A DNA stretch of 54,395 nucleotides from a virus: the UHGV virus genome UHGV-0107341; one strand, 5' to 3'. Below are positions 3,983 to 44,819 of this stretch, in pieces. Under the pieces are notes generated by a model. The model saw nothing but the letters and a program-made list of their open reading frames with translations, was not told the origin of the DNA and ran no database searches. Made by a program: the position numbers and the translations under genes. The stretch's first letter is position 1. Every line of letters starts with the position of its first letter.

Positions 3983-4599
3983 TGGTTGCCTCCTTTGCGA
4001 AGCTGTTCAGCAATACTTACGCATATCTCTGCGCCTCTAATCAGCCCCGGAACGTTCTTGTTTGGCCCAACTTCACCATCAACAAAATCAATCATCGCGT
4101 TACGAGCCATATCCACCCCCTGCGCCCGCACTTCCGCCAGGAAAGCGTCGGTAGCTGGCGTTTCGCTGTGGTGCAGGGCATCATTAATAATCATCGCAGC
4201 AACTCCGGCCTGCCCTGCATCCGTGACCGACACATGCTCAAGAGTTACGGCCATTGCGTGTTTCAGCCCGGCGTTCTCTGCCACCAGCGCCGCGAGATTA
4301 GTCTCAAGCTCTGCAATTCGACACATAGCATCAATATTTGTGTCCTCCAGGCACTTAATTTCACCAAGCAGCTCCAGTGCAACCTTTGGGTTGAACGCGG
4401 CAACATAACGAGCGTTGTTCTCTGCATTTTTCTGTCCATCAAAGCCGGTCCATTTGATAACGTCTTCACATCGTTCATCACCGGGCGTGTGCACCGCATA
4501 AGTACCAGTATCCGTCGAAATAAATGCGACCCATTCGTCTGGTGTTGCCTTTTCTGCCGCCTCACGCAGTACCTGATAGTCAATTGTCATTCTCGCCAT
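3979..4599 (-). CDS. Ead/Ea22-like protein (paralog of 3419..3982)
   Basis: Shared N-terminal motif with the adjacent gene; tandem paralog. Confidence 0.4.
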   Translation of the reverse strand: MARMTIDYQVLREAAEKATPDEWVAFISTDTGTYAVHTPGDERCEDVIKWTGFDGQKNAENNARYVAAFNPKVALELLGEIKCLEDTNIDAMCRIAELETNLAALVAENAGLKHAMAVTLEHVSVTDAGQAGVAAMIINDALHHSETPATDAFLAEVRAQGVDMARNAMIDFVDGEVGPNKNVPGLIRGAEICVSIAEQLRKGGNQ

Positions 4600-5231
4600 C
4601 CTTCACAGTTGTAATCACTACAGCCTTCAAAATCATATGGGCTGTACTGCCAGGTTATTTTTCCGCAATGCGGACAATTCCAACGCACCTTCCCGCTTCG
4701 CGACTTCTTTCTTCTGTTCTGCTCTTTCAACCAGTCAGGCATGACCAAACCTGCGCCCTGAACCATTGTTCTGCGGTTAAAGTTATTGATATTGAACGTC
4801 CGGCGCTTTGCTGCATCAGCAATGGAAAATGGCAACCAAACTATTCCTGGTTCGTTTTTGTTGGCGACGCTAAAGATGGTCGCTTTACTGAAGTCATCTG
4901 TTGGCAATCCACCGTGTTGAAGCCAGTAAACATCGTTGCCGTTCCAGCTACCTTTTTTGTAGGCCACATACGCAGTGCAATCTGACTCAATCAGGCTTTC
5001 TGTAGGGATGTACTGGCAATCAACGTGCCACACAGCCATTGCATCCACACTATCGGCACAAACAGGCTGATCGATATCTCGCCCACAATTCCAGGCTTTT
5101 TGGGCTTCTTCCAGCGTGTAAACATGAGCGCGATCGATATCAGAACTGTAACCATTGCCGTTATGGCAATGGAATGAGGCGTTATTACCCACAGTTTCAC
5201 GCAAGCACATCATGTAAAAACGGTTACTCAC
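4587..5231 (-). CDS. hypothetical protein with C-terminal Cys-rich zinc-ribbon-like motif
   Basis: C-terminal WNCPHCGK...CSDYNCEGW (CxxC...CxxC). Confidence 0.4.
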   Translation of the reverse strand: MSNRFYMMCLRETVGNNASFHCHNGNGYSSDIDRAHVYTLEEAQKAWNCGRDIDQPVCADSVDAMAVWHVDCQYIPTESLIESDCTAYVAYKKGSWNGNDVYWLQHGGLPTDDFSKATIFSVANKNEPGIVWLPFSIADAAKRRTFNINNFNRRTMVQGAGLVMPDWLKEQNRRKKSRSGKVRWNCPHCGKITWQYSPYDFEGCSDYNCEGWRE

Positions 5232-5439
5232 TGGATGCCTCCCAGCAAATTTGTCTTATATAAGAACTGTTAACGCGCTTTACTTTCCCGTCGAACTCCA
5301 GTTTCTTTAGACGACGCAAAACGTATGCCGTTTTGAGTGTGCGATATTTATCCCTAAGCCAGTTGGTCACGACGTAAGTCATACAGCGCCCGTGTTCTTC
5401 CAACACCCGAACTATTTCTTCGTCGGTTGGCTTGCTCAT
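5224..5439 (-). CDS. hypothetical small protein
   Basis: ORF track 71 aa, operon context. Confidence 0.3.
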   Translation of the reverse strand: MSKPTDEEIVRVLEEHGRCMTYVVTNWLRDKYRTLKTAYVLRRLKKLEFDGKVKRVNSSYIRQICWEASSE

Positions 5440-38622: not shown

Positions 38623-38778
38623 TTACCTTTCAGATTCGTAGGCTGTGAAGACAGTGACCTCCGTCTGGCCGGTTCGGATTCGTACCTCGCAGAGGTCTTT
38701 CCTCGTTACCAGTGCCGTCACAATGACGGTTAAACAGATGACGATCAGAGCGATTAACATCGCTTTTTGCTGCTTCAT
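38623..38778 (-). CDS. hok: Hok/Gef-family type I toxin (51 aa)
   Basis: Not in ORF track; encodes MKQQKAMLIALIVICLTVIVTALVTRKDLCEVRIRTGQTEVTVFTAYESER, matching the Hok family pattern (TM helix, RK.LCE.R...EV.AF.AYES); GGAG RBS. Confidence 0.7.
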   Translation of the reverse strand: MKQQKAMLIALIVICLTVIVTALVTRKDLCEVRIRTGQTEVTVFTAYESER

Positions 38779-38836
38779 AGCCTGCTTCTCCTTGACCTTT
38801 TGGTCGGTAAGAGGCTAATCTACGTATGCTAAGCAT
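38630..38836 (-). CDS. mok: mok-like overlapping reading frame
   Basis: 68-aa ORF overlapping hok in the +1 frame and starting upstream of it, as in hok/mok/sok loci. Confidence 0.4.
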   Translation of the reverse strand: MLSIRRLASYRPKGQGEAGYEAAKSDVNRSDRHLFNRHCDGTGNEERPLRGTNPNRPDGGHCLHSLRI

Positions 38837-38860
38837 AGATATGGCCTCAGATTAATGTTA
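38790..38860 (+). ncRNA. predicted Sok-like antisense RNA region (position approximate)
   Basis: Inference only: hok/mok loci carry a short antisense RNA complementary to the mok translation-initiation region. Confidence 0.2.
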
Positions 38861-38959
38861 AGCGTCTTGCAGGACGCGTGATGTTATCTGGGGCTTTCTT
38901 CTATCTGCTTTTCGGGTAATGCCTGAAGCAGATAGCCTCAAGCACCCGCAACGATTGTA

Positions 38960-42379: not shown

Positions 42380-42560
42380 TTAACAACCTGCGCCCCGCTG
42401 CTAAACGGGTGGCAGGACGTGACGGGGTTAGCAGACTGGCACGAATGAAACCAGCAGGCCGAAGCCTCCCCATCACGCCCCACCATAATTCGGGCGTAAC
42501 GTGGTTTTACGGACACAAAAATACCGCAATATCGGATATCTGCGGTTGTCCGCATTCGTA
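42380..42560 (-). ncRNA. candidate c4-like antisense regulatory RNA region
   Basis: Non-coding stretch between the operator at 42672 and icd; repeated complementary motifs (ctgctaaac at ~42398 and ~42568, gttagcag at ~42427); boundaries not determined. Confidence 0.25.
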
Positions 42561-42671
42561 TTCAGGCTGCTAAACCCGGTCGCAGAATTTTCTACGACGG
42601 CGGAACTATAAGCCTGAACGATTAAAAGGTCAATATGATGCGAAAAGATAGCATTCGCGACTTAAAAATAC

Positions 42672-42688
42672 AAATTTATTAGAGCATT
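42672..42688 (-). promoter_or_regulatory. C1 operator-like site (AATGCTCTAATAAATTT) at the head of the immI-like operon
   Basis: 16/17 match; followed by palindrome-like atttgtgcaataaatgcacaaat. Confidence 0.5.
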
Positions 42689-42784
42689 ATTTGTGCAATA
42701 AATGCACAAATGGATCTAATAACCTCTTTTTTTTAAAGGCGAAAATATGTACCCTAAATGGGTTATAAGGCAGGTGAGATTATA

Positions 42785-42916
42785 ATGAGAATACTATTAC
42801 TACCGTTATTATTTATGGCCGGGACTGTTAATGCAGCATCAAGCGTAAAGGAGATTTGTACCGATTATACGAAATACCTTGGGCACGTTTACGCCTTTGC
42901 GATCAATGACTATTAA
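42785..42916 (+). CDS. small secreted peptide (43-aa precursor, not in ORF track)
   Basis: ATG after GGTGAG; MRILLLPLLFMAGTVNA signal peptide then a 26-aa mature region with one Cys; AT-rich codon usage. Confidence 0.3.
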   Translation: MRILLLPLLFMAGTVNAASSVKEICTDYTKYLGHVYAFAINDY

Positions 42917-42937
42917 TCCATGCGTAGGAGTGGATTT

Positions 42938-43255
42938 ATGCTGATTCGTTTGTTTTTAGTGCTTTCCTTTTCAACATTTAATGTTTTTGCTGATGAAGTT
43001 GACTTTTCGAAGGTAGATTGCAATTCAGTGGAAACAAGAAAAGCTCTTATTGAAGAATATAACGAAATATTATCGTCATATGGAATAACAGTGGTTGATT
43101 CTTATAATCAAAAAACTATTCAGAAAGGAATAAATAAACTGGTTTGTTATGGTGTTTACCAATATTCAGATGGCTCTTCGGAGTATGTTATTTATAAAGC
43201 ATACCCAAATAGTCTTGGTGAATTGATTAGTGAGTTTAAACCGATTAATGAGTGA
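42938..43255 (+). CDS. secreted protein (signal peptide)
   Basis: Start at ATG with AGGAG RBS; MLIRLFLVLSFSTFNVFA signal peptide; AT-rich. Confidence 0.45.
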   Translation: MLIRLFLVLSFSTFNVFADEVDFSKVDCNSVETRKALIEEYNEILSSYGITVVDSYNQKTIQKGINKLVCYGVYQYSDGSSEYVIYKAYPNSLGELISEFKPINE

Positions 43256-43262
43256 ATGGAAA

Positions 43263-44042
43263 ATGAAATTATTTAATGTAATAACATTTTGTTGTGCTAT
43301 TTTTGCTGGAAGCGCGATAGCTGATAATAAATTGCCAGATTGGCTTTCTACTTCAAAAAAAGATTATGATTTAGTAAGGGTATTCTATTTGTCTGGATTT
43401 GCCTCGAAAGCAATGAATAATCAATTTGGTTATCATTTTCCATCTGAGTTGGTTAATGATTTTAAAGATAATGAATTTGCCGCTCAGGAAAAATGGAATA
43501 CAATTTCAATTGTATATGGTGAAATAAAATCCATAAGAATGGTGAATAATGAACCAATTGTAGAGTTATTTACTCCAGGGGAAAATGCAACGCCACTAAA
43601 TTATATCAAATTGAAAGTGTTGGATTCAAAACAAAACTCTCTGTTAAAACTAAAAAAATGGGATGATATATATGCAGTGTGCTCCGGTGCTAATTTTAGG
43701 TTAGTGCCAATTCTGAGCAACTGCACTCCAGCAACTGACGTCATTGATGCTGCACTCTCTTTTTCTGGTGAATATATGTTCCCTGCTTTTGATTCTTTTT
43801 CACCTACTAAGCAAAACGTCAAATATATATTCACAAATCAAGATCCTGTTCAGATGATGAATTTTATAGGGTACCTATCCTTAGTCGATACAACGAAGGA
43901 TAAGAATAAAATGGATATGGTTCGTAAGTGTACGCCTTGGAAGCCGGAATGTTCACAACAATTCGTTGATGTAATGGAAGGATTTGATAACATCATGTAT
44001 AAATATGAGAGGGAATTTAAAAATTACATAGAATTAAAATAG
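43263..44042 (+). CDS. secreted/periplasmic protein (possible superinfection-exclusion protein, Sim-like position)
   Basis: MKLFNVITFCCAIFAGSAIA signal peptide; about 30 kDa precursor; AT-rich islet. Confidence 0.4.
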   Translation: MKLFNVITFCCAIFAGSAIADNKLPDWLSTSKKDYDLVRVFYLSGFASKAMNNQFGYHFPSELVNDFKDNEFAAQEKWNTISIVYGEIKSIRMVNNEPIVELFTPGENATPLNYIKLKVLDSKQNSLLKLKKWDDIYAVCSGANFRLVPILSNCTPATDVIDAALSFSGEYMFPAFDSFSPTKQNVKYIFTNQDPVQMMNFIGYLSLVDTTKDKNKMDMVRKCTPWKPECSQQFVDVMEGFDNIMYKYEREFKNYIELK

Positions 44043-44228
44043 TATTTGAAAGGATAGTCAATTTAAGTTTTAACAAAACGCCCATTAAAGGGCGTTTTAT
44101 TGTTTTACTCAAAACAATCTGATTATGTGATAACCATATCATATTCCTCATTCCACCTACACTGATTACCCCCCCAGACAACAACATTCCTACTCAATGA
44201 ACAAATGACTACTCGTAGAATCGGTTAA

Positions 44229-44819
<591 letters not shown>

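What the first reader, a model, noticed from the sequence alone, without database searches (positions are those of the whole stretch)
42740..44050. AT-rich islet encoding three signal-peptide proteins next to the immunity operon
Composition drops sharply (clearly AT-rich against a roughly 50% GC background) over three consecutive rightward genes: a 43-aa precursor peptide (not in the ORF track), a 106-aa protein and a 260-aa protein, all with N-terminal signal peptides. The location corresponds to where P1 carries sim (superinfection exclusion), but the content could equally be a secreted toxin/immunity or exclusion system of a different type. The composition shift suggests horizontal acquisition.
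Basis: partly seen in the sequence, partly recalled or inferred. Interest (0 to 1): 0.55.

Follow-up and report, generated by a model that had tools for sequence, protein, structure and literature searches.

The report
Phage P1 sim superinfection-exclusion operon
The AT-rich islet is the already-described simA-simB-simC operon of a P1-type phage-plasmid, which exports proteins thought to stop a second P1 from injecting its DNA, so it is real but ordinary.

Summary
Positions 42740-44050 have 33% GC against a window mean of 47.5% (z = -4.8, the lowest 1.3-kb stretch in the window). They carry three rightward genes, each with a Sec-type signal peptide.

The islet is not a new system. Its DNA is 97.5% identical to the sim region of phage P1. 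The proteins match P1 SimA, SimB and SimC at 49/52, 110/111 and 254/264 residues, in the same slot between the C1 operator of c4 and the late promoter before pmgC. The low GC and the variability of this region among P1-like phage-plasmids are already published (PMC9603915).

Three modest refinements came out of the work:
- The "43-aa precursor peptide" (SimA) is most likely the 5' stump of a 179-215-aa exported protein that is intact in related elements.
- SimC has an OB-fold core of the tRNA_anti-like lipoprotein type, followed by a C-terminal helical domain.
- The slot holds at least five alternative cassettes. The annotated, characterised products all carry export signals.

Verdict: already known, low interest. 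How SimC blocks DNA entry remains unsolved.

The parts
42600..44150 (.). Extent of the AT-rich islet (GC about 0.25-0.43 in 100-bp windows)
   Evidence: Composition profiles. It is the lowest-GC 1.3-kb stretch of the 54-kb window (z = -4.8).
42672..42688 (-). C1 repressor operator Oc4 (AAATTTATTAGAGCATT on the + strand), just inside the left edge of the variable slot
   Evidence: Position transferred from the P1 annotation. The sequence was read. Homology to P7-type elements ends about 15 bp to the right, at ~42703.
42694..42720 (+). Predicted sigma-70 promoter PsimA (a prediction in the P1 annotation only)
   Evidence: Transferred from NC_005856 by alignment offset. My own consensus scan did not pick it up, so it is unverified.
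42758..42916 (+). simA: 52 aa as annotated in P1, more likely 43 aa from ATG 42785 (signal peptide plus 26 residues). Probably a truncated remnant of a 179-215-aa exported protein.
   Evidence: 49/52 identical to P1 SimA. GGTGAG Shine-Dalgarno before 42785. Residues 10-50 are 90% identical to the N-terminus of Ro157c2YLVW gp35 and 67% to the 179-aa L007 protein. It matches PHROG 3933 positions 1-41 of 213.
42914..42931 (+). Truncation junction. The simA TAA stop aligns with GAA/GAG codons of the long gene. Homology to the long gene continues through TCCATGCG.A.G, in frame, and then breaks.
   Evidence: DNA alignments A1 and A3. blastn homology to Ro157c2YLVW ends at window 42924.
42920..43255 (+). 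simB: 111 aa as annotated, more likely 105 aa from ATG 42938. Signal peptide, then an 87-aa mature protein with 2 conserved Cys.
   Evidence: 110/111 identical to P1 SimB. AGGAG Shine-Dalgarno 7 nt before 42938. Homologues start at the equivalent Met. dN/dS 0.09-0.16.
43248..44042 (+). simC: 264 aa as annotated in P1, more likely 259 aa from ATG 43263. A 20-aa signal peptide (MKLF...AIA|D), N-terminal helices, an OB fold at about residues 83-149 of the 259-aa form, and a C-terminal helical domain; 4 Cys in the mature protein.
   Evidence: 254/264 identical to P1 SimC. The 259-aa form equals ORF 2 of M34382 and the 777-member cluster P0001. OB fold. dN/dS 0.20-0.41.
44075..44098 (+). Terminator-like GC hairpin (AAAACGCCC-ATTAAA-GGGCGTTTT) with a T-rich tail, 33 nt after the simC stop
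   Evidence: Consensus scan. Sequence read.
44201..44221 (+). Right edge of the variable slot, where homology to other cassette types resumes; late promoter LPsit by transfer from P1
   Evidence: blastn homology to Ro157c2YLVW resumes at 44201 at 100% identity. The LPsit position comes from the P1 annotation offset.

Best explanation
This is the simABC operon of a P1-type phage-plasmid, and simC is the superinfection-exclusion ('superimmunity') gene.

Shown here: orthology, synteny and gene structure. The operon is read rightward from next to the C1 operator of c4 and ends at a hairpin before the late tail operon.

Inferred from sequence: SimB and SimC are made with Sec signal peptides, cleaved after VFA and AIA, and released into the periplasm. 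Their conserved cysteine pairs can form disulfides there.

From the literature on P1 Sim: periplasmic SimC prevents DNA of a superinfecting P1 from reaching the cytoplasm, at a step after adsorption.

My inference on mechanism: SimC uses its OB-fold core and C-terminal helical domain to bind a periplasm-exposed part of the incoming injection apparatus. Candidates are the tail-tube tip or the Sit tape-measure/transglycosylase. Less likely targets are the DNA itself or a host inner-membrane entry factor.

SimB co-occurs with SimC in P1, L007 and L008 and is under purifying selection, so it is probably an accessory partner. The short SimA of P1-type elements is most likely a non-essential stump of a longer exported protein.
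For: - DNA identity is 97.5% to P1 NC_005856 over 42602-44250, and 99.6-99.9% to other P1-like phage-plasmids.
- Proteins are 49/52, 110/111 and 254/264 identical to P1 SimA/B/C.
- Flanking order is the same: ant1-icd-c4-Oc4 | sim | pmgC-tub-pmgB-sit.
- All three have signal-peptide architecture. The title of Maillou & Dreiseikelmann 1990 reports purification of the processed protein.
- Sim is cited as acting to prevent superinfecting phage from injecting DNA into the cytoplasm (citing Devlin 1982 and Kliem & Dreiseikelmann 1989).
- simA/B/C are dispensable for plaque formation by CRISPRi, as expected for an exclusion function.
- dN/dS is 0.09-0.41, and full-length homologues at 36-39% identity keep length and cysteines.
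Against: - No phenotype can be tested here.
- From memory, not verified here: the Sim phenotype in P1 was seen with multicopy clones, so the strength of exclusion from a single-copy prophage is uncertain.
- The target of SimC is unknown, and my binding model is inference only.
- The SimC model is of moderate quality (mean pLDDT 64.6, 7-sequence alignment). SimC itself scores below the Pfam cutoff (13.5 bits against 23.5).
- The SimB fold is unresolved (pLDDT 48).
- SimB is absent from one SimC-like locus (L009), so it is not an obligatory partner.
Confidence: 0.93

Rival explanations
1. The sim products mainly serve the lysogen in some other envelope role, such as lysogenic conversion, stress or serum resistance, or exclusion of unrelated phages or of conjugation. 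On this view, exclusion of P1 is a side effect of overexpression.
For: - The same slot in P7, SJ46 and RCS47 holds an outer-membrane lipoprotein with sub-threshold TraT and glycine-zipper similarity, plus a DUF5384 protein. The slot is therefore a general site for exported 'moron' proteins.
- The sim genes are dispensable for lytic growth.
- From memory, not verified here: the classical Sim phenotype needed multicopy clones.
Against: - The only experimentally reported phenotype for this gene is superinfection exclusion of P1 (references).
- SimC is almost confined to P1-like elements: 13 hits among 1.84 billion representatives and 141 PLSDB plasmids. That fits a phage-specific target better than a general envelope function.
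Confidence: 0.12
2. The islet is a secreted toxin/immunity or bacteriocin-like module, with the 43-aa ORF as precursor peptide and the larger proteins as processing or immunity factors.
For: It has a small exported peptide followed by two exported proteins, an AT-rich foreign composition, and no Pfam, NCBIfam or PADLOC family for any of the three above threshold.
Against: - All three are orthologues of P1 SimA/B/C.
- The small ORF is the N-terminus of a 179-215-aa protein that is intact in Ro157c2YLVW, L007, L008 and L009. Its stop codon aligns with a Glu codon in that gene.
- There is no transporter, protease or modification enzyme in the slot, and every ORF between Oc4 and pmgC is accounted for.
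- Nothing in the papers read here reports a toxic phenotype for sim clones; I did not search for one.
Confidence: 0.02
3. The islet is a decaying, non-functional relic of horizontally acquired DNA.
For: simA appears truncated. The composition is low-GC and foreign. The genes are non-essential.
Against: - simB and simC are intact in 138 of 141 PLSDB records that carry simC.
- dN/dS is 0.09-0.41, similar to flanking pmgC and ant1.
- Homologues at 36-63% identity keep length, signal peptides and cysteines.
Confidence: 0.03

Closest known systems
Bacteriophage P1 simABC (SimC = Sim superimmunity / superinfection-exclusion protein; GenBank NC_005856 P1_gp041-043, M34382)
   Same: Same genes, order and position: 97.5% DNA identity and 94-99% protein identity. 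It also has the same flanking regulatory elements (Oc4, c4, LPsit).
   Different: Only allelic differences: 3, 1 and 10 amino-acid changes. My preferred start codons for simB (42938) and simC (43263) are shorter than in the RefSeq P1 annotation. They agree with the original M34382 ORF 2 and with homologues.
Long 'SimA-domain' proteins of other P1-like elements (Ro157c2YLVW gp35, 215 aa; PHROG 3933)
   Same: They share the promoter region, ribosome-binding site, signal peptide and first ~41 residues with SimA. They occupy the same slot and precede SimB/SimC-like genes in L007 and L009.
   Different: The window's SimA stops after 52 codons, so about 130-170 residues are missing. A weak Pfam T4_Spackle hit of the L007 protein (E = 0.048) was not confirmed by a family profile against the PDB.
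PF12869 tRNA_anti-like OB-fold proteins (PDB 3f1z, putative nucleic-acid-binding lipoprotein of Klebsiella)
   Different: SimC itself is below the Pfam cutoff. It has no lipobox and so is not a lipoprotein. It also carries extra N-terminal helices and a ~100-residue C-terminal helical domain with a second Cys pair.
T4 Sp (Spackle) and Imm; other injection-blocking exclusion proteins (T5 Llp, TP-J34 Ltp, HK97 gp15, P22 SieA), named from general knowledge
   Same: Phage-encoded proteins located outside the cytoplasm that stop DNA of a related superinfecting phage from entering after adsorption.
   Different: No sequence or fold relationship to SimC was found. Sp is a small helical lysozyme inhibitor, Llp and Ltp are lipoproteins, and gp15 and SieA are inner-membrane proteins. 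SimC is a soluble periplasmic OB-fold protein whose target is unknown.
P7 / SJ46 / RCS47 cassette upf50.5 (lipoprotein) + upf50.0 (DUF5384)
   Same: It occupies exactly the same slot between Oc4 and LPsit and also encodes two exported proteins. It is common, at about 205 PLSDB records against 141 for simC.
   Different: The proteins are unrelated. The lipoprotein has glycine-zipper and sub-threshold TraT similarity.

Membership tests
P1 simABC operon | SimC orthology (full-length, high identity to P1 SimC) | tested here: met
   254/264 identical with no gaps. PHROG 14355 E = 2.8e-183 over 1-264 of 264.
P1 simABC operon | SimB and SimA orthology | tested here: met
   SimB 110/111 and SimA 49/52 identical.
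P1 simABC operon | Position between the ImmI region (c4, with its Oc4 operator) and the late operon pmgC-tub-pmgB-sit, transcribed divergently from c4 | tested here: met
   C4 RNA at 42405-42490 (-). ant1/icd to the left and pmgC/tub/pmgB to the right.
P1 simABC operon | SimC made as a precursor with a cleavable Sec signal peptide | tested here: inconclusive
   The sequence has an n-h-c architecture and an AIA|D site 20 residues from Met 43263. No dedicated predictor or experiment was available. Processing is reported in the title of the 1990 paper.
P1 simABC operon | Confers exclusion of superinfecting P1 after adsorption | not testable with these tools
   Literature only (references).
PF12869 tRNA_anti-like OB fold (SimC central domain) | Score at or above the Pfam gathering threshold | tested here: not met
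   13.5 bits against a cutoff of 23.5 (E = 0.056) for the window protein, and 15.4 bits for P0002.
PF12869 tRNA_anti-like OB fold (SimC central domain) | Significant sequence link to a bona fide member, and five-strand OB topology matching the family's solved structure | tested here: met
T4 Spackle (PF25676), considered for the long SimA family only | Pfam threshold or a profile match to solved Spackle structures | tested here: not met
   14.7 bits against a cutoff of 27 for L007 SimA-long. A profile of 5 family members against all PDB sequences found no Spackle.
   The short ORF is a truncated copy of a 179-215-aa gene. No enzyme or transporter gene lies in the slot.
Known anti-phage defence systems (PADLOC-DB 2.0) | Match to any PADLOC model | tested here: not met
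   No hits for SimA, SimB, SimC or the alternative cassette proteins at E <= 0.1.

The most novel reading that the evidence does not exclude
SimC may represent a mechanistically undescribed class of exclusion protein. It would be a soluble periplasmic OB-fold protein that captures the tip of the incoming injection machinery, or the DNA itself, in the periplasm. The Oc4-LPsit slot of P1-like phage-plasmids would then be a hot-swappable 'periplasmic anti-injection' locus. Its alternative cassettes (long SimA + YfjT-like protein, TraT-like lipoprotein + DUF5384, divergent SimB/SimC sets) would each set a different exclusion specificity between competing phage-plasmids.
Probability: 0.2. Interest if true: 0.5.

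Novelty: already known. Interest (0 to 1): 0.15.

Why it matters
As a finding it matters little. The locus is a textbook accessory operon of P1, and its odd composition and variability are already published.

Some value remains. The way Sim blocks DNA entry has not been worked out in any paper I could find, while periplasmic blocking of phage DNA entry is a current topic (PMC13128918).

Three results give concrete starting points for that old question:
- the OB-fold assignment for SimC;
- the evidence that P1's SimA is a stump of a larger protein still intact in relatives;
- the catalogue of alternative cassettes in the same slot.

They also bear on how co-resident P1-like phage-plasmids, many of which carry resistance genes, exclude one another.

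Tried and rejected
- **Toxin/immunity or precursor-peptide reading:** rejected on orthology and on the truncation evidence.
- **T4 Spackle link for the long SimA family:** a weak Pfam hit was not reproduced by a family profile against PDB sequences, so I dropped it.
- **PTP-like phytase hit of Ro157 gp35:** 26.6 bits against a cutoff of 27, in a helical region. I treated it as unconvincing and did not pursue it.
- **SimB structure:** the AF2 model had pLDDT 48, so I ran no fold search because matches would be meaningless.
- **afdb50 fold library:** unavailable.
- **Adding L007 and L008 translations to the SimB alignment for AF2:** I worked around this with a third homologue search.
- **Lobocka et al. 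2004 (PMC523184):** not held, so statements about the P1 annotation come from the GenBank record.
- **Promoter scan:** promoter-like sites were no more frequent than in shuffled sequence (8 found against 7.9 expected), so I make no promoter claim of my own.
- **Positive selection on SimC:** rough codon counts and then NG86 estimates show purifying, not diversifying, selection.

Full report
**1. The observation**

The window is a P1-type phage-plasmid. Positions 42740-44050 have a GC content of 0.330, against a window mean of 0.475. Among all 1311-bp windows the standard deviation is 0.030, so the islet lies 4.8 sd below the mean. The only windows that low are those overlapping the islet. At 100-bp resolution the dip runs from about 42600 to about 44150.

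Three + strand ORFs fill the islet: 42758-42916, 42920-43255 and 43230-44042.
- These starts carry the best Shine-Dalgarno motifs (GGTGAG and AGGAG before the first two).
- They coincide with the starts of homologues and with ORF 2 of the original GenBank entry M34382.
- The true lengths are 43, 105 and 259 aa.

Each product has a basic n-region, a hydrophobic core and a -3/-1 cleavage site: VNA|A, VFA|D and AIA|D. This was a heuristic check only, because no dedicated predictor was available.

**2. What it is**

A megablast of 42600-44250 matches phage P1 (NC_005856) end to end at 97.5% identity, over genes annotated simA, simB and simC. It also matches many P1-like phages and plasmids at up to 99.9%.

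Protein identities to P1 are 49/52 (SimA), 110/111 (SimB) and 254/264 (SimC).

The surroundings are those of P1:
- ant1 and icd lie on the minus strand to the left.
- The C4 antisense RNA is at 42405-42490, and its a1b1 target element is at 42559-42611 (Rfam).
- The C1 operator Oc4 is at about 42672-42688.
- pmgC, tub and pmgB follow to the right.
- A GC-rich hairpin with a T-tail at 44075-44098 follows the simC stop.

That condition is met.

**3. What is already published**

- sim was defined genetically as 'superimmunity' and shown to cause superinfection exclusion. The gene was then sequenced and the processed protein purified. The references are Devlin et al. 1982, Kliem & Dreiseikelmann 1989 and Maillou & Dreiseikelmann 1990, and their titles were seen.
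- A 2021 study summarises Sim as possibly preventing superinfecting phages from injecting DNA into the cytoplasm.
- A genome-wide CRISPRi screen found simA, simB and simC non-essential for plaque formation.
- A comparison of 77 P1-like phage-plasmids lists simC-simB-simA as one of eight highly variable regions. It notes that the variable regions, simABC included, have low G+C.

So both the composition shift and the variability have been described. From memory, not verified here: adsorption was normal, transfection bypassed the block, and the phenotype was seen with multicopy clones.

**4. Refinement: SimA is probably a stump**

- SimA residues 10-50 match positions 1-41 of a 213-position PHROG.
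- They are 90% identical to the N-terminus of a 215-aa exported protein (gp35) of phage vB_EcoM-Ro157c2YLVW.
- DNA homology between the window and that phage runs from the c4 side through simA to about 42924-42931 and then breaks. It resumes at 44201 at 100% identity.
- In three-way alignments the simA stop TAA (42914-42916) aligns with GAA or GAG codons of the long genes. The next conserved block, TCCATGCG, contains the ATG annotated as the simB start, and that ATG is in the same frame as simA.
- A divergent Salmonella phage-plasmid (L007) carries, in the same slot, a 179-aa long SimA (67% identical to SimA over 42 residues, 59% to gp35). It is followed by a SimB homologue (63%) and a SimC homologue (38-40%).
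- An E. coli plasmid (NZ_CP027575, L009) carries a 212-aa long SimA followed by a SimC-like protein at 36% identity, with no SimB.
- In PLSDB, 267 plasmids contain the SimA N-terminal module. Of these, 84 have the full 215-aa form and others have variants matching to residues 161-170. In the sampled rows, sim-carrying records match only residues 1-48.

The simplest reading is that P1-type elements lost the body of a longer simA gene. This is inference from comparison. The stump may still be translated and exported.

**5. Refinement: SimC has an OB-fold core**

SimC is close to an orphan. A word-indexed search of 5.8 billion proteins found 4 clusters. An exhaustive HMMER search of 1.84 billion representatives found 13 hits.

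Four lines of evidence point to an OB fold:
- One of the 13 hits, P0022 (E = 1.8e-6, SimC residues 66-160), is named 'OB-fold protein' by NCBI. It scores 53.8 bits on Pfam PF12869 tRNA_anti-like, whose cutoff is 23.5. SimC itself reaches only 13.5 bits.
- An AlphaFold2 model from a 7-sequence alignment is of moderate confidence (pLDDT 64.6, pTM 0.54). It shows the classic b1-b2-b3-helix-b4-b5 order at residues 83-149, preceded by helices and followed by a helical domain at 183-257.
- Foldseek against viral models gives 'tRNA_anti-like' and 'putative nucleic acid-binding lipoprotein' among the best hits.

The Cys pair in b4/b5 is shared with P0022, and the C-terminal CTPW..C pair is kept in the 39% homologue.

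SimB gave a poor model (pLDDT 48), so its fold is unresolved.

dN/dS is 0.09-0.16 for simB and 0.20-0.41 for simC. Flanking genes give 0.03-0.24. Both genes are therefore maintained by selection.

**6. Refinement: the slot**

The interval between Oc4 and the late promoter LPsit holds at least five arrangements:

| Element | Slot contents |
|---|---|
| P1, this window | short SimA + SimB + SimC |
| L007 (Salmonella) | long SimA + SimB + SimC |
| L009 (E. coli NZ_CP027575) | long SimA + SimC-like |
| Ro157c2YLVW | long SimA + a 158-aa YfjT-family protein |
| P7, SJ46, RCS47 | lipoprotein + DUF5384 protein |

One metagenomic contig (L008) has SimB + SimC placed upstream of long SimA + the YfjT-like protein.

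In PLSDB, simC occurs in 141 records and the P7-type lipoprotein in about 205. The annotated, characterised products carry signal peptides or lipoboxes. The 107-aa L008 protein was not examined for export signals. The P7 lipoprotein has sub-threshold TraT similarity.

None of these proteins matches a PADLOC model.

**7. How it most likely works**

Shown here: identity with sim, operon structure, signal-peptide architecture, purifying selection, and an OB-fold core (moderate confidence).

From the literature: SimC is processed and causes exclusion of superinfecting P1 at DNA entry.

Inferred:
- Mature SimC (239 aa, about 27.7 kDa, pI 5.4) sits in the periplasm.
- Through its OB fold and helical domain it binds a periplasm-exposed element of the incoming tail, or less likely the DNA or a host entry factor.
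- SimB assists.
- Short SimA is dispensable.

Rivals and my confidence in each:
- A different primary envelope role, with exclusion as an overexpression effect: 0.12.
- A toxin/immunity module: 0.02.
- A decaying relic: 0.03.

**8. Verdict**

The feature is real and correctly located, but it is the known P1 simABC operon. Novelty: already known. Interest: 0.15. The small additions (SimA as a truncated gene, the OB-fold core of SimC, revised start codons, a catalogue of slot cassettes) are useful leads, not discoveries.

Noticed in passing
window 38623-38947 (- strand): A hok/sok-type toxin-antitoxin module lies next to repL. It comprises sok RNA (Rfam RF01794, 112 bits) at 38773-38947, a 51-aa Hok-like peptide at 38623-38778, and an overlapping mok-like ORF. 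It lies just beyond repL, where I recall P1 carrying rlfA/rlfB (another published variable region); I did not check the P1 record there.
   Followed up: partly
L003 (P7) 4371-5435; L005 (SJ46) and L006 (RCS47) equivalent positions: The alternative cassette in the sim slot encodes a lipoprotein and a DUF5384 protein. The lipoprotein has glycine-zipper and sub-threshold TraT (surface-exclusion protein) similarity (E = 7e-5, 23 bits against a cutoff of 31). RefSeq names it 'DNA methyltransferase', which looks like an annotation error.
   Followed up: partly
L008 1-3110 (Logan contig SRR14689322_4989): Here an 82%-identical simC and its simB sit upstream of an intact long simA (215 aa) plus a YfjT-family gene, preceded by an unrelated 107-aa protein. 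This is a tandem arrangement of two cassette types, and it shows that the modules shuffle independently.
   Followed up: partly
L007 4059-4598 (Salmonella enterica GCA_005690115.1): The 179-aa long SimA gives a weak full-length hit to Pfam T4_Spackle, the T4 periplasmic exclusion protein (E = 0.048). A family profile against the PDB did not support it. It may still be worth a structure-based test.
   Followed up: yes
window 42920-42937 and 43230-43262: The RefSeq P1 gene models for simB (111 aa) and simC (264 aa) probably start too early. Shine-Dalgarno motifs, homologue N-termini and the original M34382 ORF 2 favour starts at 42938 (105 aa) and 43263 (259 aa).
   Followed up: yes
window 19872-22101 (- strand): Three tRNA genes (Met-CAT, Thr-TGT, Asn-GTT). 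I recall P1-type phages carrying three tRNA genes; this was not checked against the P1 record.
   Followed up: no
P1 coordinates 47270 and 47906 (window about 43559 and 42922, by offset): A 2008 paper predicted ArgR boxes inside simC and exactly at the simA/simB junction. That junction is the truncation junction described here. In AT-rich DNA these may be chance matches.
   Followed up: no
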